From contig CAUQVP010000001.1 in the NCBI GenBank assembly GCA_963521545.1, positions 1 through 57,370 of the forward strand: DNA of 57,370 nt, written 5' to 3'. This document shows, in pieces, positions 6,282 to 43,222 of the stretch. Every line of letters begins with the position of its first letter. Positions within the stretch are counted from its first letter, which is position 1. This DNA comes from an uncultured Flavobacteriaceae bacterium. GTDB taxonomy: Bacteria; Bacteroidota; Bacteroidia; Flavobacteriales; Weeksellaceae. Position numbers and translations under genes: made by a program. The notes under the pieces are model-generated. The model searched no databases and had not been told where the DNA came from. It saw only the letters and a list, made by a program, of their open reading frames with translations.

Positions 6282-6318
6282 AAAATCTCCACTGCTAAAA
6301 TAGTGGAGATTTTTATTT
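6282..6318 (+). terminator. rho-independent terminator
   Basis: Stem aaaatctccact / agtggagatttt followed by a T-run, immediately after the 6275 stop. Confidence 0.6.
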
Positions 6319-6466
6319 AAATTTCCGAAATAATTAGAAAAACATAAACGAGAGTTCACTGAAACTTTGCTAAAGAAACGCCGAAGCAAAAACAAAAGCT
6401 CATACAAAAACGGATAAAGTAAATTATTTAAATAAAAAAATAAAGAGAAAGAAGAAAAATATTATA

Positions 6467-6838
6467 ATGAAAATAAAGAACTACATATATTTTATATTTT
6501 TTATTGCTATATCAGTATTTACAGCGAGTGCTTATTTTGATATAAAAAATAAAGAAAATTTTATAAAAAATAATAAACCTGTTAAAGTATATATTCTTAA
6601 TATTCATAGGTTTGCAAAATCATCATCTACTTGCGATATTAAATATGATAATAGAATATACAAAGGAATACCTTACCCAAGTAAGTTAAAAGAGGGCGAG
6701 TATAATGATGATATTTTCTATTATGATGAAGAAGAGGATGCTGTATTTGTAGGTAAAATAGAATATAAGATTATATATATCTTATTGTGTTTATCTTTCT
6801 TCTTTCTGTTTTTATGGCTAAAAAGTATATGGAAGTAA
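6467..6838 (+). CDS. hypothetical membrane protein (N- and C-terminal TM helices)
   Basis: 123 aa in the very AT-rich islet. Hydrophobic N-terminus (IYFIFFIAISVFTASA) and C-terminus (IIYILLCLSFFFLFLWL). Confidence 0.45.
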   Translation: MKIKNYIYFIFFIAISVFTASAYFDIKNKENFIKNNKPVKVYILNIHRFAKSSSTCDIKYDNRIYKGIPYPSKLKEGEYNDDIFYYDEEEDAVFVGKIEYKIIYILLCLSFFFLFLWLKSIWK

Positions 6839-6854
6839 TATAATAATATACCAA

Positions 6855-7190
6855 ATGAAGACAAAACGAATTTTATCAATAACCATTATAGCGGGTTTTA
6901 TAATAACGATGATTGTAATTCAAATTGATAGAAATATTCATGAAAGAAATATGTATGAATCAGAAATAAAAGGTATTCTTTGGAAAATAGTTTTAAAAAA
7001 AGGAGGACATCATTATTATTACGATAAGTATAATAAAAGGGAGTATTTTATAGATGATGATTTTTTTCAAGACAGAAGTGAAAAAAATATAGTAATAGGA
7101 GATTCTATATATAAACCTTCCCATAGTAAAGAGATTTATATTTATAGAAAAGTAAATAATAAGTACAAATTGATTGTTGAAAGTAGATGA
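6855..7190 (+). CDS. hypothetical membrane-anchored protein, paralog 1
   Basis: 111 aa with an N-terminal TM helix. 49 of 111 positions are identical to the 7276-7620 product in my ungapped hand alignment (shared NMYxSEIKG...GGHHY...YIYRK). Confidence 0.55.
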   Translation: MKTKRILSITIIAGFIITMIVIQIDRNIHERNMYESEIKGILWKIVLKKGGHHYYYDKYNKREYFIDDDFFQDRSEKNIVIGDSIYKPSHSKEIYIYRKVNNKYKLIVESR

Positions 7191-7275
7191 TTTTTCAGAT
7201 GAGCTTGGTTTAATATGAGTGAAATCTAACATTTTGATAAATAGGGAATAAAGCAAATTATTCAAATAAAAAATA

Positions 7276-7620
7276 ATGAAAAAGAAGAAAAATATTATAA
7301 TAATGTTTCTGCTAAGCATCATTGTAATAAATGTATCTGATTATATTATAAGAAAAATACAAAAACAAAATATGTATAAATCAGAAATAAAAGGTGTGGT
7401 TTGGGATATTTTTCTAAAAAGAGGAGGACACCATTATCGTTATAATAGAAATGATAAAGGAGATTATTTTGTGGATGAACATTTTTTCAATGATAAACCT
7501 TCAAATATTATAAAAAAGAATGATTCTGTATATAAAGCACCCAACAGCGAAAAACTCTATATATACAGAAAAATAAATAATACTTATGTTCTTGTTGGAC
7601 AAAGTCAAAAATGGTGGTAA
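7276..7620 (+). CDS. hypothetical membrane-anchored protein, paralog 2
   Basis: 114 aa, colinear with the 6855-7190 product. An alternative in-frame ATG lies at 7303. Confidence 0.55.
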   Translation: MKKKKNIIIMFLLSIIVINVSDYIIRKIQKQNMYKSEIKGVVWDIFLKRGGHHYRYNRNDKGDYFVDEHFFNDKPSNIIKKNDSVYKAPNSEKLYIYRKINNTYVLVGQSQKWW

Positions 7621-7686
7621 GTAATATCTCAATGTGTTTGGTTTTATCCATATAAAAACTTTTTAGTAAAAAAATAATAACACCAT

Positions 7687-8283
7687 ATGAAGTATATCAA
7701 AACTAAAGTAAATAAAATATTGTTAGTGGTATTATTATGTTTGTGTTTAGGTTGTGAGAAAAAGAGTGCATTGCCTCAAAATAACCCCATAAATAATGAA
7801 CTGAAAGATATAAACATAGATGTTTTACATACTATGGAAAATAATAATGATTTTTTAATCACTATTAATATTGAAAATAAAAGCAATGAATATTACTGTA
7901 TGATATATGATTATGAGGGGGATTTAGATAAAAGAATATACTCTAAAATAAAGAGTGTAAATAAAGATGTGGTTGAAATCAGTTACTATCCTTTTTATAG
8001 TGAAATTGTAAGTAAACACCGTGAGGAACAAGAAGATAGAGATCCACCTGTAATATCATTAGATGATTTTATTTTTTTAATAATTGGTCCTCAAGAAAAA
8101 GAAGAAATTACACTCTCAATAAAATATGATTTATTGAAAAAATATGAAACAAAAAGATTAAAATTGTATTTCTCAAAATATAAAAATGAAGATTCTTTAA
8201 ATTCCAAATTTATAAGAATTTCTCCTACAAAAGATGCTATGTCATACTATAATTTTAAAGAGAAGTTGATAGAAATTAGGTAA
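7687..8283 (+). CDS. hypothetical lipoprotein
   Basis: 198 aa with a signal peptide and lipobox (LCLCLGC). No recognisable domain. Confidence 0.5.
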   Translation: MKYIKTKVNKILLVVLLCLCLGCEKKSALPQNNPINNELKDINIDVLHTMENNNDFLITINIENKSNEYYCMIYDYEGDLDKRIYSKIKSVNKDVVEISYYPFYSEIVSKHREEQEDRDPPVISLDDFIFLIIGPQEKEEITLSIKYDLLKKYETKRLKLYFSKYKNEDSLNSKFIRISPTKDAMSYYNFKEKLIEIR

Positions 8284-8311
8284 TCTTCCAAATGTATTTT
8301 TCACTCACAAT

Positions 8312-11369: not shown

Positions 11370-12284
11370 ATGGAGGTTGATAAAGTGCACATTCCCATAG
11401 TAGATATTCCACTGGAGGGAGGCGTGAAATTGTCCGTGAAACGCGAGGATTTGGTTCATCCACAGATTTCGGGTAATAAGTATTGGAAAATGTTTTATAA
11501 TGTAAAGACATACCTTGTCCGAGAGGTGAAAAATCCTTTGATAATCACTTTTGGGGGTGCATATTCTAATCATATCGCGGCGGCATCTGCTGTTGGAGAA
11601 AAATACAATATTAAAACTTTGGGCGTTATCCGTGGGGAGGAGTTGGAGAATAACTGGCAGGGAAATCTCACGCTGGAAGATGCACATAGGAGAGGAATGG
11701 ATTTTTTGTTCGTTACTAGAGAGGCGTACAGAGACAAGGAAAAAATTACAAGAGACTTGCAGGAAAAATTTCCAGAAGCCCTTATTGTCCCTGAAGGTGG
11801 GACTAATGAACTGGCAGTGGAAGGGGTGAAACATATGCTAGATGAGCGGACAAAAGAATTTGATTATATTTGCACCGCGGTTGGGACAGGAGGAACCATT
11901 TCGGGCTTGTCCAAATTTGCAGAAGAACATCAGAAAATATTGGGGTTCAAGGTGGTGGACGACCCTACTTTGGAGAAGAGAATCCAAGGGCTGAGTGGGA
12001 GGAAGAATTTTACTCTTTTTGATGCTCATGATGGGAGATATGGGAAAATTATAGATGAAAATATTCAGTTTATCAATGATTTTTATGAGCGGTATGATGT
12101 TCCTCTCGACCCTATATATACAGGGAAAATGATGAGAAATCTGATGAAACTGATACAGGAAGGATATTTCCTGCAGGGCAGCAGGATTTTAGCATTTCAT
12201 ACAGGAGGTTTGCAGGGGATTTTAGGGGCAAATGAATGGTTAAAAAAGACAAAAAAAGAACTAATCAAAATAAAATTTAACTAA
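11370..12284 (+). CDS. PLP-dependent 1-aminocyclopropane-1-carboxylate deaminase / D-cysteine desulfhydrase family protein
   Basis: 304 aa. SGNKYWK (PLP-lysine motif), GGAYSNHIAA and a HTGG C-terminal motif. Confidence 0.8.
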   Translation: MEVDKVHIPIVDIPLEGGVKLSVKREDLVHPQISGNKYWKMFYNVKTYLVREVKNPLIITFGGAYSNHIAAASAVGEKYNIKTLGVIRGEELENNWQGNLTLEDAHRRGMDFLFVTREAYRDKEKITRDLQEKFPEALIVPEGGTNELAVEGVKHMLDERTKEFDYICTAVGTGGTISGLSKFAEEHQKILGFKVVDDPTLEKRIQGLSGRKNFTLFDAHDGRYGKIIDENIQFINDFYERYDVPLDPIYTGKMMRNLMKLIQEGYFLQGSRILAFHTGGLQGILGANEWLKKTKKELIKIKFN

Positions 12285-37090: not shown

Positions 37091-37600
37091 ATGGATAGAG
37101 AAATTTATTTTGCTGGTGGATGTTTCTGGGGAACGGAGCATTTTTTCAAGCAAATCAACGGAGTAACAACTACACAGGTAGGTTATGCCAATGGAAATAT
37201 AGAAAATCCCACTTATGAGCAGGTGTATACCGACAGCACGGGCTTTGCAGAGGTGGTGAAGGTGGCCTATGACCCAAAGGTGGTAAGTCTGGAAATGCTT
37301 TTGGATTTGTTTTTTAAAACAATAGACCCTACAAGCCTTAATCAGCAGGGAGAAGACATCGGAACGCGCTACAGAACAGGAATTTATTGGGTAAATTCAG
37401 AAGATGAAAAAGTAGTAAAAGAGGCACTTTCGGAACTTCAAAAAAATTATGAAAAACCCATAGTGGTGGAAAACGAGCCTTTGAAAAATTTCTACAGTGG
37501 AGAAGAATATCATCAGGATTATTTGGACAAAAACCCAAGTGGATACTGCCACATCAATCCAGAATTATTCGAACTCGCGAAAAAGGCTAATCTGAGATAG
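37091..37600 (+). CDS. msrA: peptide-methionine (S)-S-oxide reductase
   Basis: Trimmed to the ATG at 37091 (MDREIYFAGGCFWG). GCFWG catalytic motif, plus YHQDYL. Confidence 0.93.
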   Translation: MDREIYFAGGCFWGTEHFFKQINGVTTTQVGYANGNIENPTYEQVYTDSTGFAEVVKVAYDPKVVSLEMLLDLFFKTIDPTSLNQQGEDIGTRYRTGIYWVNSEDEKVVKEALSELQKNYEKPIVVENEPLKNFYSGEEYHQDYLDKNPSGYCHINPELFELAKKANLR

Positions 37601-37626
37601 GTTTTTAAGAATAGAGAATGATAAAA

Positions 37627-39909
37627 TTATTTAGAGTTTATTTTATCTATTAATCCTCTCAATTTTTTATCATATTCTTGGTTTCCAAAATTAATTATAA
37701 CTAAATGGGATTTACTTCGAGTAATACCTGTATATAAAATTTCATCTATAGATTGAGAATTAGAAGGTTCTAGAATCAAAAATACTAATTCGCTTTCCCA
37801 TCCCTTGAAGCTATGGACAGTAGAAATTTTAATAGTTCCACTATTAAACCAAAAGTTCATTTTTTTATTTTTTCGGATAGTTTCAAAAGTTTGATGTGTA
37901 GAATTTTTTAAATCCTCATATTCTTTTCGATTGTTTTCTATGAAATTTAAGAAGTCTTGAGTTTCAATTTTTGCTTTCTTACATTCGTTTTTTAAAGTAA
38001 TGTCGAACTGATGATACTCATCATTATATTTTTCGTATAGTTCATATATTGTTAGTAGTTTAGCTAAAAGGGCAATGTTGTTTTTTAGGGGGGGATGATG
38101 TTTTGGTAATAATTTTATCCCTTCAGTATAAAGATCTTCTTTTTTTGATTCTAAATTAATTTTATAACCAATTTCTTTGGTTTCAAACATTGTATTGGTT
38201 CTTTCACGAGAATGATACCTGTAATAAGCTTCAAACTCTTTTAAATTTTCAATAGAAAATCCCAATACACAAACATCATTGATAGAGATATCTTTGTATT
38301 TGTTTTCTAAACTTTGATGAATAATATTATACAAAGCAGAAAGGTCAAGAGTATTTTCTAAAAACATATAGTTAATACTTCCATGCTTTTCAAATTCAAA
38401 GGAAAGCTGAGTATCTTCTTTTTTGTCAAAATCATCAATATCATATTTGTCTTTGTAAATTTCTTTTTGAAATAATACAGCTAATTCTTTTACTTTTTGA
38501 TCAGAACGATAACATTGTTTTAATAGGTTGAATGCTCCAAGTATATTGGTTTTAACTTTTTTGTCTTCCGTTTCTCGTGCATAAATATTCTGCTTTTCAT
38601 CTCCAAACAAAATATATTCTCCATTTTCTTTTAGAATATATTTTTTTAGGATTTCAAACCAAATATATTTATAATCCTGTATTTCATCTGTTAAAATAGC
38701 ATCGTATTTTTGTATATTATTTTTATATTCTTCAAACAATTGTATATTGGAATAATATTTTTCATCAAAATATTCAGAAATTATTTTAAACCATTGGATG
38801 CGATATTTAGGATTTTTATTTGCAAAATATTGATTTAATTTTTGGGTAGGTTCCTCATTCTTTTCTAAAGTACTTAAAATTTCTAAGATAATATCTTTTG
38901 GAAGATATTTACTGCATATTTTATGAAGTAAAGGGTCATCAGGGTCGATATAAATATCAATTTCAATATTATTGAGAACAAAATTTATCAATGAATGATA
39001 ATTTAAAATCTCGAAAGACTTCCATTCAAATTCTTCTGGAACTTGATTTAATTTATCGTGGATATAATTCTTTAATGTAATATTAAAAGTGAGTATAAGA
39101 ATTTTAGGATTATCATTTTCTTTTAAAATTCGTTTATAAGCTTCTACAGCCCGAGCTACTAGGGTTGTTGTTTTCCCAGAGCCTACAACCCCTTTTATTT
39201 TTTGAGCTTTATTTTGTGAATAAATTATTCGTTGTTGTTCTTGTGAATAAATGATAGGTTTCCCTTGCTCTTTTAAATGTATAGGTGGCTTGAGAAATCT
39301 AGAAAAACTTTTATATAATTCTTGGGTAAATAAATAAGATGGTTTTTTTCCATTGATATACCTTTTTTTAAGAATTTTATCAAATTTTTCTTTTTCTAAA
39401 TCATCTCTACCAATGAGATCAATATTGTGTTTTAGAAAAGTTAGGTATTTTTCATCTTCTTTAAAAGGTTCTACCAGAAATTTTTGAAGATTATTTTGGT
39501 AGGCGTTATGAAAATAAACGGCACAACATACCATTTTCCAATTTTTATAATCTTTTATTTTTTTTTCTAATAAATTTGGTATGTGTAAATCGTATAAATT
39601 CTCTTTATACTTCAAAACTTGTTGAATAGGAGATTTTGTAACTGCTTTATTGTGCTTTACAATCCATTGTTTTCTGGAATTTAATTTATAAGAAGATAAA
39701 TCCCAATCTTTCACTTCAATAATAAAAACCCCTCCATTTTTCCGCATAATGATAATGTCAGGTCTATCGCCGTTCATGTATGGATTAAAATAGACTTCAT
39801 ATTCATCATTATAATTGTTTTTTAGGAAATTGAGCAGGTGAAGTTCTCCACTAGTTGGAGGAACTTTCATCATTAAAATTGTTTCAAAATCAGGATAAAA
39901 TATAGCCAT
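37627..39909 (-). CDS. NERD (PD-(D/E)xK-like nuclease) domain fused to an SF1 UvrD-like helicase
   Basis: 760 aa. The N-terminus has DRPDIIIMRKNGGVFIIEVKDWDL (D...ExK). It is followed by GVVGSGKTTT (Walker A), ILTDEIQDY (motif II), LFGDEKQNIY (III), CYRS (IV), TVHSFKGWE (V) and YTGITRSKSHL (VI). The gene is much more AT-rich than its flanks. Confidence 0.85.
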   Translation of the reverse strand: MAIFYPDFETILMMKVPPTSGELHLLNFLKNNYNDEYEVYFNPYMNGDRPDIIIMRKNGGVFIIEVKDWDLSSYKLNSRKQWIVKHNKAVTKSPIQQVLKYKENLYDLHIPNLLEKKIKDYKNWKMVCCAVYFHNAYQNNLQKFLVEPFKEDEKYLTFLKHNIDLIGRDDLEKEKFDKILKKRYINGKKPSYLFTQELYKSFSRFLKPPIHLKEQGKPIIYSQEQQRIIYSQNKAQKIKGVVGSGKTTTLVARAVEAYKRILKENDNPKILILTFNITLKNYIHDKLNQVPEEFEWKSFEILNYHSLINFVLNNIEIDIYIDPDDPLLHKICSKYLPKDIILEILSTLEKNEEPTQKLNQYFANKNPKYRIQWFKIISEYFDEKYYSNIQLFEEYKNNIQKYDAILTDEIQDYKYIWFEILKKYILKENGEYILFGDEKQNIYARETEDKKVKTNILGAFNLLKQCYRSDQKVKELAVLFQKEIYKDKYDIDDFDKKEDTQLSFEFEKHGSINYMFLENTLDLSALYNIIHQSLENKYKDISINDVCVLGFSIENLKEFEAYYRYHSRERTNTMFETKEIGYKINLESKKEDLYTEGIKLLPKHHPPLKNNIALLAKLLTIYELYEKYNDEYHQFDITLKNECKKAKIETQDFLNFIENNRKEYEDLKNSTHQTFETIRKNKKMNFWFNSGTIKISTVHSFKGWESELVFLILEPSNSQSIDEILYTGITRSKSHLVIINFGNQEYDKKLRGLIDKINSK

Positions 39910-39943
39910 TTTTTAAAATTATAAAAATCAATCAATCTTATTA

Positions 39944-39970
39944 ACTTTTGTAAGGATTCTTTACAAAAGT
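39944..39970 (-). repeat. perfect 10-bp inverted repeat (hairpin) between the five-gene operon and the NERD-helicase gene
   Basis: acttttgtaa (39944-39953), 7-nt loop, ttacaaaagt (39961-39970). It lies 30 nt downstream of the 40000 stop and 35-61 nt upstream of the 39909 start. The minus-strand arm contains TActTTTG. Confidence 0.5.
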
Positions 39971-39999
39971 ACATATATTAAATTATTTTAGCTACTTTT

Positions 40000-40551
40000 T
40001 TAATCATGATTAAAGCTTTTATCCATCAACACTTTCCCTTGGTAGATTTTTTCATAACGAATGAGCTGTTCTCCTTTGAAATAGCCGATATAATAAGCGC
40101 GCTCTTGGCTGTGTTCTTCGGCTTCTTCTTGGGTGATTTCATCGTATAAATAAGTGGGCTGGTCGGTTGCTTTTTTATGCAAATCAGAGCAGTTGAGAAA
40201 ATAGCGAACAACCATATTTTCTTTGTATAAATAGAGTTTCTGTCCATTCATAGGGATTTCGGCAAAGACCCTTTCTTGCTCAACGGGGGTAATGGGCATT
40301 TTAGGTTCAAAAGAAGGGTCAGCACGAAAGGTATATTGAGGATCAATATGTATTTCTGAACTTTTTACTTTGAATAGGGTTCGCTCCCAACTATTCCCCA
40401 ATAAGAAATACTGAAAACCATCCTTTTCCCCACAATATTCATAGGTAAGTAGGGATTGTATCGCAAAGGCTTCTGTGGCTTTACGCTCTTCTGTCGCTCT
40501 TTTACAAGAGAACAACGCTAACAAAGAGGCTAATAAGGTCATTTTTTTCAT
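40000..40551 (-). CDS. hypothetical lipoprotein (operon gene E)
   Basis: 183 aa with lipobox LFSC. The start overlaps the upstream stop (ATGA). Confidence 0.55.
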   Translation of the reverse strand: MKKMTLLASLLALFSCKRATEERKATEAFAIQSLLTYEYCGEKDGFQYFLLGNSWERTLFKVKSSEIHIDPQYTFRADPSFEPKMPITPVEQERVFAEIPMNGQKLYLYKENMVVRYFLNCSDLHKKATDQPTYLYDEITQEEAEEHSQERAYYIGYFKGEQLIRYEKIYQGKVLMDKSFNHD

Positions 40552-41480
40552 TCTTTTCTACTAAATATATAGGTATCTGCTTCTTCAAAGTTAGGGTACT
40601 GCCCTCCAAAGACTTCTCTTACTACAATTTTACCGAGGTAACGTTCTAAAGGCAAGTAGATATCCTCAGCATCTGTACAAACAAACTCTAAATGAGACAT
40701 TTTCAGCAAAGGAGAGGCATCTTTTATAGGATTAAAACATATCTTTAAGTTCCTAAGGGTCTCCATACCTACCAAATCACTAAGGTCTTCTATCTTGTTT
40801 TGCTCTAAGTTCAATTCCTCTAAAGATAAATGCTTCAAAGGAGAAAGGTCTTTCACCTCGTTGTGATATAAACGCAAGGTAGTGAGTTTTTTGAGGGCTC
40901 TCAGAGGAGATAAATCGCTGATTTGATTCCTCTCTAATTGTAAATATTCAAGATTGGGCAACCACGCCAAAGGGGATATATCGGTGATTTGGTTTCTATC
41001 CAACCAAAGTTCGGTAAGGTTTTGTAATCGTTGTATGCCCTCGAAAGAAATGAGTTTATTGCACGATAGTTTTAATTCTTTTAGCTTGGATAATTCGCAA
41101 AAAGGAGTTATATCGCTCACTCCACTGTCATAAACCTCTACTTTTTTCAGTTTTTTATACTTGGCAAGAGGCGTATAATCTGTTGCCTTGACATTCAAAT
41201 AGAGTTTTTGTAGCTTCTCCAAGGGTGGTAAGGATTCTAAATCGGTAATATTCTCCGATAGCAACTCTAATTCCTTTATATTGGGGAACATTTGTAAGTC
41301 GGCTAAGTCCTCCGAGTGCAAATCATCGTTATGAATGAGTATTTTGGTAATCAAAGGAGCTCCTTCTTCTTTGACCAATACTTTCTTCCCTTCTTTTACA
41401 AGAAGGTCAGCGTGTTTCTTTTTCAGATATTGCTTTACTTTCTGTTCTATGAGCTTGCTCTTAAAGGTAATGTAACTCAT
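40548..41480 (-). CDS. cytoplasmic leucine-rich repeat protein (operon gene D)
   Basis: 310 aa with no signal peptide. About 9-10 consecutive 22-residue internalin-type LRRs (e.g. LQNLTELWLDRNQITDISPLAW, LPNLEYLQLERNQISDLSPLRA). Confidence 0.8.
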   Translation of the reverse strand: MSYITFKSKLIEQKVKQYLKKKHADLLVKEGKKVLVKEEGAPLITKILIHNDDLHSEDLADLQMFPNIKELELLSENITDLESLPPLEKLQKLYLNVKATDYTPLAKYKKLKKVEVYDSGVSDITPFCELSKLKELKLSCNKLISFEGIQRLQNLTELWLDRNQITDISPLAWLPNLEYLQLERNQISDLSPLRALKKLTTLRLYHNEVKDLSPLKHLSLEELNLEQNKIEDLSDLVGMETLRNLKICFNPIKDASPLLKMSHLEFVCTDAEDIYLPLERYLGKIVVREVFGGQYPNFEEADTYIFSRKE

Positions 41481-41926
41481 TTTGTTTTATTTAATACTTC
41501 TTCAAAACTAAGTATTTCGTATTCTTCATTTAGATGATATTTTTCTTTGGTTTGTTTGTACCAAGTGTCGTGTTCTTCCTCAAAATTATTAGTGTCAGAG
41601 GGAGTTCCGTCCTGCCAATACATATTTCCCTTGGCTATCTCCATTGCGTTGTGATAGGTAAGCTCGTGCGGAATGCAGAATAAAAAAATCTCAAGATTTT
41701 TAGGCGAGGTTGCAAACAGGCTACTTTGAGCTAATTTTTCAGTAGCTTCTTCCCAGTTAAGTCTTGCATAGTGCACCATATAGTGCTTGAGCCATTCGCA
41801 ATAGGAATAGTGGTTGTAGATCCAATAACATTGGTTTTCTGTGTCTTCATATACTATCCCGTCACACAAGCCATTTTCGTGAGGTTCAGTTCCTATTTGT
41901 GCTAATCGTTTTTGTAAGGTGTTCAT
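41477..41926 (-). CDS. hypothetical protein (operon gene C)
   Basis: 149 aa, rich in Cys, His, Trp and Tyr, with no recognisable domain. ATGA overlaps at both ends. Confidence 0.5.
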   Translation of the reverse strand: MNTLQKRLAQIGTEPHENGLCDGIVYEDTENQCYWIYNHYSYCEWLKHYMVHYARLNWEEATEKLAQSSLFATSPKNLEIFLFCIPHELTYHNAMEIAKGNMYWQDGTPSDTNNFEEEHDTWYKQTKEKYHLNEEYEILSFEEVLNKTK

Positions 41927-42258
41927 TTTTTCTTAATCAAAATATCTCCTTCGTTTAAAGAAAGTTTTTCACCTTCTATTTCTAATTCTTTCCAATCTTC
42001 TCTTTCATCGGTTTCTACATCATCTACAATCCGAAAATCAGCAAAAGCCATAGAGGGTGCAGGTAGCACAATAACTTTCTCTATATCTTTTGGTTCTAAA
42101 TGATAAGTATCCGAAAGTTTTTTGAGAAATAATAGTTGTTCCAGTTCCTTTTTATAGCTTACAAGTGCGTGTTTCTCCTCATCCGAAAGAGAAACTTCTT
42201 TAAGTTGATGAACAACTTTTTGAAGTTCTTCTTCTATAAGTTGTTTTGCTGTTTTCAT
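41923..42258 (-). CDS. hypothetical acidic protein (operon gene B)
   Basis: Trimmed from the track start 42297 to the ATG at 42256-42258 (MKTAKQLIEEEL), 2 nt after the gene A stop. 111 aa with a helical N-terminus. Confidence 0.5.
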   Translation of the reverse strand: MKTAKQLIEEELQKVVHQLKEVSLSDEEKHALVSYKKELEQLLFLKKLSDTYHLEPKDIEKVIVLPAPSMAFADFRIVDDVETDEREDWKELEIEGEKLSLNEGDILIKKK

Positions 42259-42260
42259 TA

Positions 42261-43175
42261 TTACAATCCGTATTTTTTCCATCCTCCATCGTGCCATTGA
42301 CAGTCATCTATCTTCCACTCGCCATCTTTTCTGATGATGAGAAAACGAAACTGAGTATTATGATCTTCTTGGGTGTAGAGGTATATCTTATTTTTAGTTA
42401 CCAATTCATTATCAATGATTTGATGTTCACCATAGGTACCACCTTTATCTAAAGAATAACTAATTCCTTCAGGGCGATAGCCTGCCCTGCGCTTGTCGGT
42501 ACAATACTTTTGAAAGAGGACTTTACATTTTTCTCTTACCAAAAGATCGCCTTCTTCGGTATCGCCATTCTTGGTAGCAAAAGCTTCCCACTCGGTCATT
42601 GCAGCAAAGAAATCTAAAAGCAGTTGCTTTACGATGGGCAAATCATCGGTAGGGGTTGCCGTTGGTTTCTTCTTTCCTGCCGTGCGTTGAGCTTGTTCAA
42701 AGGCTTTTATCTGCTCGTCGGTAAAAGACTTGCTAAGGTAAAAACTTACCTTGTTGTAGTTTGCCACAGCCATAAGTCCTTCAAAAGTAACCCGTGTTCT
42801 CTTTAGCGAAAGAGACTTTAGGCGTGGTACTTGCAAGACGATTTTTAGCGTCTCATCAGTTACGGGACAACCATCCAGCGAGATATGGTCAATAGGTTTG
42901 TCGGCAAAGTACTTAAAGCCTTCGCCTGTAACTTGTTTGTTGTCCTCTAAGAAAAGGAGTTTTAGTTTGGGCAATGTCGCCAAGTACTGGAGGGCTTCAT
43001 CAGTAATCGCGGTATTGATAAAGCCCATATTGACCAACGACTTTATTTTTACGATCTGTTCAACCATCTCGTCGGTTAGGGTGACATCCTTGTAATGATG
43101 TCCCTTGCAAAAGCGCTTCTCGGTTACTTCTTTGAGCGCGGCTTCTAAAGTGATAGGGTATTTGTATGCGGCCAT
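42261..43175 (-). CDS. LRR-like N-terminal domain fused to an NTF2-fold immunity-protein-like C-terminal domain (operon gene A)
   Basis: 304 aa with RNI/LRR-like repeats (LPKLKLLFLEDNKQVTGEGF, LKSLSLKRTRVTFEGL). The C-terminal ~110 aa (LLDFFAAMTEWE...IYLYTQEDHNTQFRFLIIRKDGEWKIDDCQW) resemble Imm-NTF2/RhsIA-type immunity proteins by recollection. Confidence 0.6.
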   Translation of the reverse strand: MAAYKYPITLEAALKEVTEKRFCKGHHYKDVTLTDEMVEQIVKIKSLVNMGFINTAITDEALQYLATLPKLKLLFLEDNKQVTGEGFKYFADKPIDHISLDGCPVTDETLKIVLQVPRLKSLSLKRTRVTFEGLMAVANYNKVSFYLSKSFTDEQIKAFEQAQRTAGKKKPTATPTDDLPIVKQLLLDFFAAMTEWEAFATKNGDTEEGDLLVREKCKVLFQKYCTDKRRAGYRPEGISYSLDKGGTYGEHQIIDNELVTKNKIYLYTQEDHNTQFRFLIIRKDGEWKIDDCQWHDGGWKKYGL

Positions 43176-43190
43176 TTTTAATAGATTAAG

Positions 43191-43222
43191 AATAAAAGCG
43201 GAAAATTATTCCGCTTTTTTTT
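43191..43222 (-). terminator. rho-independent terminator of terC (overlaps its stop codon)
   Basis: Minus-strand stem aaaagcggaa / ttccgctttt followed by ttttattctt. It ends about 15 nt before the gene A start. Confidence 0.55.

What the first reader, a model, noticed from the sequence alone, without database searches (positions are those of the whole stretch)
37627..39909. Stand-alone NERD-nuclease / SF1-helicase fusion in a sharply AT-rich block: candidate single-gene anti-phage system
Seen directly: a 760-aa ORF whose first ~120 aa carry a NERD/PD-(D/E)xK-like signature (DRPDIIIMRKNGGVFIIEVKDWDL). It is followed by a complete UvrD-like SF1 motif set (GVVGSGKTTT, ILTDEIQDY, LFGDEKQNIY, CYRS, TVHSFKGWE, YTGITRSKSHL). 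My hand counts of a few 60-nt lines inside the gene give roughly 20-35% G+C, against about 50% in a line of the adjacent msrA and about 48% in a line of the adjacent operon. That suggests separate horizontal acquisition. Established: nuclease-helicase fusions such as staphylococcal Nhi act as single-protein phage defences, and NERD domains are nuclease-related. Inference: this is a defence gene of the Nhi-like architectural class, or an undescribed relative, rather than a repair helicase. It has no partner gene.
Basis: partly seen in the sequence, partly recalled or inferred. Interest (0 to 1): 0.7.

Follow-up and report, generated by a model that had tools for sequence, protein, structure and literature searches.

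The report
Solitary NERD nuclease–UvrD helicase cargo gene
A single horizontally acquired gene encodes a nuclease fused to a DNA helicase; it belongs to a widespread but untested family that travels on mobile DNA and often sits beside phage-defence genes, so it is a plausible, unproven defence gene and not a new kind of system.

Summary
Window 37627..39909 (-) is an intact 760-aa ORF. It has an N-terminal NERD (PD-(D/E)xK) nuclease domain with all catalytic residues, and a complete UvrD/Rep/PcrA-type SF1 helicase.

It is a precise 2,416-bp single-gene insertion (37601..40016) between msrA and a small lipoprotein-like gene. The site is empty in 14 of the 15 closest species-representative genomes, whose flanks are ~95-96% identical in nucleotides. 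There is no integrase, target duplication, CRISPR array or partner gene.

The family has ≥549 clusters at 50% identity. Members were solitary except at two loci, 8-17 G+C points below their flanks, and under purifying selection (dN/dS ~0.2). They recur on plasmids, an SXT-like ICE, integrase-bounded islands, and next to R-M, retron-type RT and ABC-ATPase defence candidates.

The protein matches the PADLOC candidate model C3a187 ('NERD+UvrD', 7e-55). It matches nothing named Nhi and lacks the DUF2075 helicase that defines Nhi and Nhi-like.

Verdict: an accessory nuclease-helicase, probably anti-phage/anti-MGE and Nhi-like in logic but not in ancestry. It is a new member of a catalogued, experimentally uncharacterised family. 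Interest is moderate to low.

The parts
37601..40016 (.). Inserted block of 2,416 bp, low in G+C. It carries one gene plus 26 bp of 3' non-coding and 107 bp of 5' non-coding DNA.
   Evidence: blastn of the flanks against empty-site genomes stops at window 37600 and resumes at 40017. In L009-type loci these points are adjacent positions 11654|11655. No terminal direct or inverted repeats were found.
37627..39909 (-). 760-aa ORF: NERD nuclease fused to a UvrD-like SF1 helicase.
   Evidence: Exactly the same protein occurs on 13 metagenome contigs. dN/dS is 0.17-0.25 against homologues.
39505..39909 (-). N-terminal NERD / PD-(D/E)xK nuclease domain (aa 1-135; Pfam match aa 20-115 = 39565-39852).
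   Evidence: PF08378 E 7e-11. The predicted secondary structure is the alpha-beta-beta-beta-alpha-beta core, with pLDDT mostly above 90.
39844..39846 (-). E22, the conserved glutamate of the first helix of the PD-(D/E)xK core.
   Evidence: Invariant in 73 sequences from two phyla.
39757..39759 (-). D51 of the 'PD' motif (P50-D51).
   Evidence: Invariant.
39709..39717 (-). E65-V66-K67, the '(D/E)xK' motif.
   Evidence: E65 and K67 are invariant.
39253..39504 (-). Helical linker region (aa 136-219) between the nuclease and the helicase.
   Evidence: Secondary structure of model m1137dc4e9948. No Pfam match.
37675..39252 (-). UvrD/Rep/PcrA-like SF1 helicase core (aa 220-745) with 1B- and 2B-like helical insertions.
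   Evidence: PF00580, PF13245, PF01443 and PF13538. Foldseek top hits are UvrD1, UvrD, Rep and PcrA at E 6e-16 to 1e-14.
39163..39192 (-). Helicase motif I / Walker A, GVVGSGKTTT (K246).
   Evidence: G240, G243, G245, K246 and T247 are invariant. Coordinates.
38671..38697 (-). Motif II / Walker B, ILTDEIQDY (D408-E-I-Q-D412).
   Evidence: D408, Q411 and D412 are invariant. Coordinates.
38581..38610 (-). Motif III, LFGDEKQNIY.
   Evidence: D437, Q440 and Y443 are invariant. Coordinates.
38503..38514 (-). Motif IV, CYRS (R468).
   Evidence: R468 is invariant.
37795..37821 (-). Motif V, TVHSFKGWE.
   Evidence: S700, K702, G703 and E705 are invariant.
37702..37734 (-). Motif VI, YTGITRSKSHL (R731).
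   Evidence: Y726, T727 and R731 are invariant.
38770..38943 (-). Lineage-private helical insertion (aa 323-380) in the 1B-like subdomain. It is absent from the 85%-identical allele and from the rest of the family.
   Evidence: Alignment A1. Predicted as four helices.
39944..39970 (-). 10-bp-stem hairpin (ACUUUUGUAA-7 nt-UUACAAAAGU) in the 5' non-coding part of the insert. It overlaps a TACTTTTG match to the Bacteroidota -7 promoter consensus TAnnTTTG (39964-39971).
   Evidence: z -1.9, not significant. The promoter reading is an inference from the published consensus. The hairpin and the box are conserved in the L007 allele.

Best explanation
The gene is a horizontally acquired, free-standing accessory gene. 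Its product joins an active-looking NERD (PD-(D/E)xK) endonuclease to a UvrD/Rep/PcrA-type SF1 helicase.

Shown:
- The domain identities and intact catalytic and ATPase motifs.
- A precise single-gene insertion into a variable locus of an uncultured human-associated Weeksellaceae bacterium.
- Purifying selection.
- Family-wide low G+C relative to hosts.
- Recurrent carriage on plasmids, an ICE and integrative or defence islands.

Inferred mechanism: the helicase loads on single-stranded DNA or DNA ends of an invading phage or plasmid, such as replication or recombination intermediates. It translocates with ATP hydrolysis, in the 3'-5' direction as in UvrD-type enzymes. This feeds or positions DNA for cleavage by the N-terminal nuclease and destroys the invader's genome.

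It therefore works like the single-protein nuclease-helicase defences (Nhi, Hna) and like the Gabija or AddAB logic folded into one chain. It is not a sequence relative of Nhi. How it tells self from non-self is unknown.
For: Domains and motifs:
- Pfam NERD plus UvrD-helicase, AAA_19 and UvrD_C_2, all above cut-off.
- E22, D51, E65, K67 and helicase motifs Q and I-VI are invariant in 73 sequences from Bacteroidota and Pseudomonadota.
- AF2 model with pLDDT 85 and pTM 0.80. Its best PDB matches are UvrD1, UvrD, Rep and PcrA, then the helicase-nucleases AddA and AdnB, SLFN11 and GajB.

Accessory status:
- The site is empty in 14 of 15 genomes whose flanks are ~95-96% identical.
- The 76%-identical homologue sits at a different chromosomal site.
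- Gene G+C is 8-17 points below the flanks in six independent hosts.
- dN/dS is 0.17-0.25.

Conflict contexts of homologues:
- An IncN plasmid, beside a type II R-M system.
- An IS-flanked position on a Klebsiella plasmid.
- Beside a Dcm/EcoRII-type R-M system and PDC-S18.
- Directly downstream of WYL, a retron-type RT, HisKin-conflict and iREC genes.
- Between PDC-S01 and an NsnB/PDC-M55A-like ABC ATPase.
- An SXT-like ICE, between traN and ssb/bet.
- An integrase-bounded E. coli island beside an ABC-three-component system; only 2 of 5,426 complete E. coli genomes carry it.

Other:
- PADLOC candidate model C3a187 'NERD+UvrD' matches at 6.9e-55.
- The host locus between msrA and terC is itself variable and holds an Imm-NTF2 immunity-type gene and an LRR gene.
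- Literature: single-chain nuclease-helicases Nhi and Hna are phage defences triggered through phage replication proteins (PMC10732053; bioRxiv 10.1101/2022.08.27.505566). NERD domains occur in several defence systems (PMC10952713; PMC12839542).
Against: - I found no experiment on any member of this family in the searchable literature.
- Four of about fourteen contexts examined, including this window, are ordinary housekeeping neighbourhoods with no other recognised phage-defence gene nearby.
No enrichment statistic was computed.
- The only curated defence-library match, C3a187, is a three-member cluster. It was defined by proximity to type III CRISPR-cas loci and never tested.
- Helicase polarity, the nuclease substrate (DNA or RNA; a NERD RNase is reported) and the trigger are all inferred.
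Confidence: 0.55

Rival explanations
1. An accessory DNA-repair or recombination enzyme: a one-chain analogue of AddA/RecB/AdnB that resects DNA ends or processes stalled forks for the host's own benefit.
For: The helicase core is closest in fold to the repair helicases UvrD, Rep and PcrA, and next to AddA and AdnB. The only PDB sequence hit is AddA, at E 0.0025. Several homologues lie among housekeeping genes.
Against: The gene is absent from 14 of the 15 closest genomes and present in only 2 of 5,426 E. coli genomes. It is always AT-rich relative to its host. It is repeatedly MGE cargo or next to R-M and other defence candidates. The nuclease is N-terminal and of NERD type, not the C-terminal RecB-type nuclease. 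No partner subunit is present.
Confidence: 0.15
2. A selfish function serving the mobile element: the gene helps the plasmids, ICEs or islands that carry it, for example by attacking competing elements or processing DNA during transfer or establishment. The chromosomal copy here would be a stranded remnant of such cargo.
For: Homologues lie on conjugative IncN and IncF plasmids, in an SXT-like ICE hotspot, in integrase-bounded islands and next to IS elements or a resolvase.
Against: In this window, and at L088, L091 and L093, no mobile-element gene accompanies it. It is nevertheless intact and under purifying selection. Cargo hotspots of ICEs and plasmids are also where defence genes sit, so this reading overlaps with defence and does not exclude it.
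Confidence: 0.15
3. A true member of the Nhi / Nhi-like family: the same lineage as the staphylococcal Nhi or the Bacillus Nhi-like protein.
For: The order of parts is the same (N-terminal PD-(D/E)xK-type nuclease, C-terminal SF1 helicase) and it is a single gene. SLFN11, whose helicase is of the DUF2075 type, appears among the fold matches at E 7e-11.
Against: There is no PF09848/DUF2075 match at E<=1. Neither this protein nor six other NERD-UvrD proteins matches a PADLOC model named Nhi. The best fold and Pfam matches are UvrD/Rep/PcrA, not the Schlafen-group-3 type.
Confidence: 0.07
4. An accessory effector of a type III CRISPR-Cas system, which is the original meaning of the PADLOC model C3a187.
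For: Strong match to C3a187 (6.9e-55). That cluster was defined by adjacency to type III-A/B cas cassettes.
Against: The 57-kb window has no CRISPR array and no cas-like context. None of the ~14 homologue contexts examined contained cas genes. The defining cluster had only three members.
Confidence: 0.03

Closest known systems
PADLOC model PDLC01087 'C3a187' (cluster 187, 'NERD+UvrD', of Shah et al. 2019, RNA Biol, PMC6546367)
   Same: The domain architecture is the same and the HMM match is strong (6.9e-55). All other NERD-UvrD proteins tested here match it too, at 1e-51 to 1e-77.
   Different: C3a187 was defined by proximity to type III CRISPR-cas. No cas genes or CRISPR array occur here or near any homologue examined. 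The cluster is a three-member, untested candidate.
Nhi (Bari et al. 2022, S. epidermidis) and Nhi-like (Millman et al. 2022, Bacillus)
   Same: A single polypeptide with an N-terminal PD-(D/E)xK-class nuclease and a C-terminal SF1 helicase. It is stand-alone and accessory. The proposed logic, a helicase-guided nuclease attack on phage DNA, is the same.
   Different: The helicase here is of UvrD/AAA_19/UvrD_C_2 type, not DUF2075/PF09848. No PADLOC model named Nhi matched. Even Nhi and Nhi-like share no sequence identity with each other, so 'Nhi-like' names an architecture and not a clade.
Gabija GajB (with GajA)
   Same: A UvrD-family SF1 helicase used in defence. There are weak HMM matches (best 1.6e-12) and a fold match (2e-10).
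   Different: Gabija is a two-gene system whose nuclease (GajA, ATPase plus Toprim) is a separate protein. No GajA-like gene is present here, and the nuclease is a fused NERD domain.
AddAB / RecBCD / AdnAB helicase-nucleases
   Same: A UvrD-like SF1 motor covalently joined to a PD-(D/E)xK-superfamily nuclease. Fold matches are at ~1e-11 and the AddA sequence hit is at E 0.0025.
   Different: In those enzymes the nuclease is C-terminal and of RecB type. They are multi-subunit and core repair genes. Here the nuclease is N-terminal and of NERD type, and the gene is solitary and sporadic.
DRT-associated NERD-helicase (cluster 485 with UG34, Mestre et al. 2022; PADLOC 'RTasNERD-Hel')
   Same: NERD N-terminus plus C-terminal helicase. 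One homologue (P0090) sits directly downstream of a retron-type RT operon.
   Different: The window protein does not match RTasNERD-Hel. Only the B. cereus plasmid protein did, at 9e-14. No RT gene is present in the window.

Membership tests
NERD (Pfam PF08378; PD-(D/E)xK superfamily) | HMM match above the gathering score. | tested here: met
   43 bits against a cut-off of 22.1, aa 20-115.
NERD (Pfam PF08378; PD-(D/E)xK superfamily) | Catalytic E ... PD ... (D/E)xK residues on an alpha-beta-beta-beta core. | tested here: met
   E22, P50-D51 and E65-V-K67 are invariant in 73 sequences. They fall on helix 20-32 and strands 52-56 and 60-67 of the model.
UvrD/Rep/PcrA-like SF1 helicases | Motifs Q, I, Ia, II, III, IV, V and VI present and conserved. 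| tested here: met
   PF00580 scores 35.5 bits against a cut-off of 23.
UvrD/Rep/PcrA-like SF1 helicases | Fold closest to UvrD, Rep and PcrA. | tested here: met
   Foldseek top 23 hits are UvrD1, UvrD, Rep and PcrA, at E 6e-16 to 1e-11.
UvrD/Rep/PcrA-like SF1 helicases | 3'-5' ssDNA translocation and ATP-dependent unwinding. | not testable with these tools
   Needs biochemistry.
Nhi / Nhi-like | N-terminal nuclease domain. | tested here: met
   NERD domain.
Nhi / Nhi-like | DUF2075 (PF09848, now SLFN-g3_helicase) helicase domain, as described by Millman et al.. | tested here: not met
   No PF09848 match at E<=1. UvrD-type domains are found instead.
Nhi / Nhi-like | Match to a defence-library profile for Nhi. 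| tested here: inconclusive
   No PADLOC model named Nhi matched at E<=1, nor for six related proteins. I could not confirm that this library holds an Nhi model, and DefenseFinder was not available.
Nhi / Nhi-like | Demonstrated protection against phage that depends on both nuclease and helicase residues. | not testable with these tools
   Needs an experiment.
PADLOC C3a187 (type III CRISPR-associated NERD+UvrD) | HMM match. | tested here: met
   6.9e-55, 184.9 bits, two stretches. The best stretch covers aa 16-487 on profile positions 13-406 of 559.
PADLOC C3a187 (type III CRISPR-associated NERD+UvrD) | Encoded next to a type III CRISPR-cas cassette. | tested here: not met
   No tandem or CRISPR array in the window. 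No cas genes in any context examined.
Gabija | GajB helicase paired with a GajA (ATPase-Toprim) gene. | tested here: not met
   Only weak GajB matches. The insert holds one gene. The neighbours are msrA and a lipoprotein-like ORF.
AddAB/RecBCD-type helicase-nuclease | C-terminal RecB-family nuclease and partner subunit(s). | tested here: not met
   The nuclease is N-terminal and of NERD type. There is no partner gene. NCBIfam recD and addA matches are far below their cut-offs.

The most novel reading that the evidence does not exclude
The NERD-UvrD family (≥549 clusters at 50% identity, spanning Bacteroidota, Pseudomonadota and Bacillota) may be a distinct, so far unvalidated single-gene anti-phage/anti-plasmid system. 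It would have arisen independently of Nhi by fusing a NERD nuclease to a UvrD-type rather than a DUF2075-type motor. This copy would be a working example in an uncultured human oral or airway Weeksellaceae commensal.
Probability: 0.5. Interest if true: 0.5.

Novelty: new member of a known kind. Interest (0 to 1): 0.35.

Why it matters
If the family does protect against phages or plasmids, it would add a widespread one-gene nuclease-helicase system to the defence catalogue. It is already carried by IncN plasmids, SXT-like ICEs and Bacteroidota chromosomes. It would also show that the 'nuclease plus SF1 motor in one chain' solution evolved more than once.

In practical terms, this locus offers a clean natural contrast. 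Isogenic-like genomes exist with and without a 2.4-kb single-gene insert, and these could be used to look for differences in phage or plasmid load in human metagenomes.

As it stands, the finding is a well-supported annotation of an accessory gene and not a surprise. The architecture has been known since the NERD domain was described in 2004, and defence-prediction libraries already list it as a candidate.

Tried and rejected
1. Nhi membership: rejected on domain content (no DUF2075) and the absence of any Nhi-named PADLOC match. I had no authentic Nhi sequence for a direct comparison.

2. CRISPR type III accessory role: rejected for this locus. There is no array and there are no cas genes in any context.

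3. Transposon or integrative-element mobility: no target-site duplication, terminal repeats, integrase or tRNA. The short repeats reported inside the AT-rich gene look like chance matches.

4. Phage origin: one weak hit among 50,697 phage records and three real hits among 2.9 million viral contigs. The gene is not typically phage-borne.

5. Non-coding RNA or riboswitch upstream: no Rfam match anywhere in the window. The upstream hairpin is not significantly more stable than shuffles (z -1.9).

6. The first AF2 model, from 20 close homologues, was poor (pLDDT 69, pTM 0.39) and gave low TM-scores. It was replaced by a model from a 73-sequence, two-phylum alignment.

7. PDB sequence search: only AddA at E 0.0025, so there is no close solved relative.

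8. Literature searches for an experimentally tested NERD+UvrD single-gene defence found none. The supplements of Mestre et al. were not held.

9. Sigma-70 promoter scan: 22 hits against 16.4 expected, uninformative in AT-rich Bacteroidota DNA.
Full report
**1. Observation**

Window 37627..39909 on the minus strand is a single uninterrupted 760-codon ORF with an ATG start.

- DRPDIIIMRKNGGVFIIEVKDWDL, aa 48-71
- GVVGSGKTTT, aa 240-249
- ILTDEIQDY, aa 405-413
- LFGDEKQNIY, aa 434-443
- CYRS, aa 466-469
- TVHSFKGWE, aa 697-705
- YTGITRSKSHL, aa 726-736

The composition shift is real. The gene is 26.0% G+C (GC3 18.5%) against 36.4% for the rest of the window. That is 3.5 standard deviations below other 2.3-kb windows.

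msrA is 39.5% and the bshA-like glycosyltransferase 40.4%, not ~50%. The block is also not unique, because ~6300-8300 is even lower at about 24%.

**2. What the protein is**

Pfam places aa 20-115 in NERD (PF08378, 43 bits against a cut-off of 22.1). The rest falls in UvrD-helicase (PF00580), AAA_19, Viral_helicase1 and UvrD_C_2, all above their gathering scores. NCBIfam gives nothing near its cut-offs. PHROGs gives only a generic 'DNA helicase'.

I built an alignment of 73 full-length homologues from Bacteroidota (45-93% identity) and Pseudomonadota (32-38% identity). The invariant residues are exactly those expected of an active enzyme:

- Nuclease: E22, P50-D51 and E65-x-K67. This is the E...PD...(D/E)xK set.
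- Helicase: Q225 (Q motif); G240/G243/G245/K246/T247 (motif I); D408/Q411/D412 (motif II); D437/Q440/Y443 (motif III); R468 (motif IV); S700/K702/G703/E705 (motif V); Y726/T727/R731 (motif VI).

An AlphaFold2 model built on that alignment is confident (pLDDT 85, pTM 0.80). E22 lies on the first helix, D51 on the second strand of the core sheet and E65/K67 on the third strand. This is the canonical PD-(D/E)xK arrangement.

Foldseek against the PDB returns M. tuberculosis UvrD1, E. coli and D. radiodurans UvrD, Rep and PcrA as the top 23 hits (E 6e-16 to 1e-11). The helicase-nucleases AddA and AdnB follow, then human SLFN11 and Gabija GajB. A profile search of PDB sequences finds only AddA at E 0.0025, so no close relative has been solved.

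This lineage carries a private ~58-residue helical insertion (aa 323-380) in the 1B-like subdomain. The 85%-identical allele lacks it.

**3. Where it sits and how it got there**

The organism is an uncultured Weeksellaceae bacterium. The MAGs are labelled 'Riemerella sp.' or 'Flavobacteriaceae bacterium'. Exactly the same protein occurs on 13 contigs, including a Human Microbiome Project assembly.

I fetched the bshA neighbourhood from one genome per species. Fifteen representatives have BshA at 97-99% identity and flanks ~95-96% identical in nucleotides to the window. One of them (L019) carries the gene, at 99% identity. The other fourteen do not.

In twelve of the fourteen, the msrA stop codon directly abuts, and overlaps, the stop of a convergent 182-aa lipoprotein-like ORF. 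The other two have lost part (L008) or all (L020) of the adjacent variable island.

blastn defines the insert to the base. The homology stops at window 37600 and resumes at 40017, and these points are adjacent in the empty genomes. The 2,416-bp insert contains this ORF, 26 bp downstream and 107 bp upstream.

The insertion rewrote the last residues of the lipoprotein-like ORF (…MDKSFNHD* in place of …MDKTISD*). There is no target duplication, no terminal repeat, no integrase, no tRNA and no CRISPR array.

A metagenome contig (L007) has an 85%-identical allele with the same junctions and the same non-coding flanks. A 76%-identical homologue (P0008) lies at an unrelated chromosomal site, between an enoyl-CoA hydratase gene and a yaaA-like gene. 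It shares only ~20 nt upstream of the start codon. The mobile unit is therefore essentially the ORF itself, presumably spread by recombination.

The wider interval between msrA and a terC-family gene (37600-43200) is a variable locus. Here it also carries an LRR protein, three small ORFs without Pfam matches (183, 149 and 124 aa), and an Imm-NTF2 immunity-type protein (1.4e-41). Other relatives carry fewer or different genes there.

**4. The family**

The indexed homologue search scored 1,706 proteins at E<=1e-3 among 8,000 candidates. An exhaustive phmmer scan of 1.84 billion cluster representatives gives 549 clusters at E<=1e-30 and 1,271 at E<=1e-10.

A proteobacterial clade (646-664 aa) is named by NCBI 'nuclease-related domain-containing DEAD/DEAH box helicase'.

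Three properties recur across the family:

- No partner gene is shared among the ~14 contexts examined. Two homologues, L097 and L099, directly abut other conflict genes and could be operonic (see section 6).
- The gene is 8-17 G+C points below its flanks in all six hosts tested, from 33% to 53% G+C backgrounds.
- It is under purifying selection, with dN/dS 0.17-0.25.

The contexts fall into two groups. Four are plain housekeeping neighbourhoods: this window, L088, L091 and L093. The rest are mobile-element or conflict contexts:

- A conjugative IncN plasmid, beside a type II R-M system and a recombinase.
- A Klebsiella IncF plasmid, between IS elements.
- A locus with a Dcm methylase, an EcoRII-type REase, transposases, a Gp49/HTH toxin-antitoxin pair and PDC-S18.
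- A position directly downstream of a WYL regulator, a retron-type reverse transcriptase (RT-Protease_XI, 6e-101), and HisKin-conflict and iREC genes.
- A position between PDC-S01 and an NsnB/PDC-M55A/HEC-03B-like ABC ATPase.
- A V. cholerae SXT-like ICE, between traN and ssb/bet.
- IS- or resolvase-adjacent sites.
- An integrase-bounded E. coli island beside an 'ABC-three component system'. Only 2 of 5,426 complete E. coli genomes carry it.

The family is almost absent from phages. There is one weak hit in 50,697 phage records and three real hits in 2.9 million viral contigs.

**5. Comparison with known systems**

*PADLOC.* The best match is PDLC01087 'C3a187, NERD+UvrD' (6.9e-55). There are only weak GajB matches, and nothing named Nhi.

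I traced C3a187 to Shah et al. 2019. It is cluster 187, with three members (for example Dole_0738), found near type III-A/B CRISPR-cas cassettes and never tested. No cas gene or array accompanies the gene here or in any homologue context. The HMM match therefore establishes architecture, not a CRISPR role.

*Nhi and Nhi-like.* Millman et al. describe both as an N-terminal nuclease plus DUF2075 (PF09848). They state that the two share no sequence identity. The window protein has no PF09848 match at E<=1 and is UvrD-type instead.

It therefore shares the architectural idea, and plausibly the mode of action, of Nhi. Nhi is thought to attack phage replication intermediates, and phages escape it through SSB mutations. 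Membership in the Nhi family fails on a defining feature. I could not obtain an authentic Nhi sequence for a direct comparison, and I could not verify that the PADLOC copy holds an Nhi profile. That row is marked inconclusive.

*Gabija and AddAB/RecBCD.* Both fail on gene content and on the position of the nuclease domain.

**6. Mechanism**

Shown: an intact PD-(D/E)xK active site and an intact SF1 ATPase/helicase motif set in one chain; accessory, horizontally moving and selected.

Inferred: by homology with UvrD, Rep and PcrA, the motor translocates 3'-5' on ssDNA. The fused NERD nuclease then cleaves the DNA that the motor engages. The biological target is invading DNA, from phage or plasmid. 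The trigger or self/non-self rule is unknown. Possibilities include free ends, replication intermediates with phage SSB, or modified DNA.

In some genomes the same protein directly abuts other conflict genes and could be operonic (retron-type RT/HisKin/iREC; ABC ATPase). This suggests it can also serve as an effector module. A NERD domain acting on RNA has been reported (ZwsA), so an RNA substrate is not excluded.

**7. Verdict**

The feature is real. The defence interpretation is reasonable and is now backed by presence/absence data and neighbourhood evidence, but it remains untested.

The gene is not an Nhi relative. It is also not an undescribed architecture. It is a new member (a Bacteroidota clade with a private insertion) of a catalogued, uncharacterised NERD-UvrD family.

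I put about 0.55 on an anti-phage/anti-MGE function, about 0.15 on host repair, about 0.15 on an MGE-selfish role, and small probabilities on Nhi membership or a CRISPR accessory role. Interest is 0.35.

Noticed in passing
window 6300-8300: A second sharply AT-rich block (G+C ~0.24, lower than the finding). It holds four small plus-strand ORFs of 123, 111, 114 and 198 aa with N-terminal hydrophobic or lipoprotein-like segments. The 111- and 114-aa products are paralogues (…MYESEIKGILWKIVLKKGGHHYYYD… / …MYKSEIKGVVWDIFLKRGGHHYRYN…). It may be another horizontally acquired cassette.
   Followed up: partly
window 40000-43175 (minus strand): A variable array of five genes next to the insert: a 183-aa lipoprotein-like ORF, a 310-aa LRR protein, 149-aa and 124-aa ORFs without Pfam matches, and a 304-aa Imm-NTF2 immunity-type protein (1.4e-41). 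The whole array is missing in L020, truncated in L008 and expanded in L009. It looks like an orphan-immunity or interbacterial-conflict locus between msrA and terC.
   Followed up: partly
window 37598-37600 / 40000-40020; L009 11641-11654: In the empty-site genomes, msrA and the convergent lipoprotein-like ORF overlap at their 3' ends. The insertion replaced the last residues of the lipoprotein-like ORF (MDKTISD* became MDKSFNHD*), so the insert supplies that gene's new stop codon.
   Followed up: yes
window 38770-38943 (aa 323-380): A ~58-residue helical insertion in the helicase 1B-like subdomain. It is private to this lineage and absent from the 85% allele at the same locus and from all other family members aligned. 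Its origin and effect are unknown.
   Followed up: partly
L097 3455-12205 (and L098): A 47%-identical homologue lies 16 bp downstream of, and co-oriented with, a possible operon: a WYL regulator, a retron-type reverse transcriptase, a HisKin-conflict protein, a 237-aa unknown and an iREC/response-regulator protein. This may be a multi-gene conflict system that uses the NERD-helicase as its effector.
   Followed up: partly
L106 / L107 (V. cholerae contigs): A proteobacterial family member is cargo of an SXT/R391-like ICE, in the variable region between traN and ssb/bet, together with two unknown ORFs (402 and 193 aa) and transposases.
   Followed up: no
P0028, alignment A1 columns ~370-460: One homologue (812 aa) carries an insertion at the same 1B position. 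The insertion contains a degenerate second copy of the motif II region (…DAVFVNEIQGYKRQLMDIIK…), which suggests an internal partial duplication at a recurrent insertion point.
   Followed up: no
L088 10001-10075: The 729-aa gene call for P0005, P0006, P0008 and P0009 starts 25 codons upstream of the conserved MA(K/I)FYPDF start and overlaps the preceding enoyl-CoA hydratase gene. This is probably a mis-called start; the 704-aa versions are likely correct.
   Followed up: partly
window 39944-39971 (minus strand): A 10-bp-stem hairpin between the lipoprotein-like ORF and the NERD-helicase start overlaps a TACTTTTG match to the Bacteroidota -7 promoter consensus. It is conserved in the L007 allele. 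It could be a terminator, an insulator or an operator. Its folding energy is not significant (z -1.9).
   Followed up: partly
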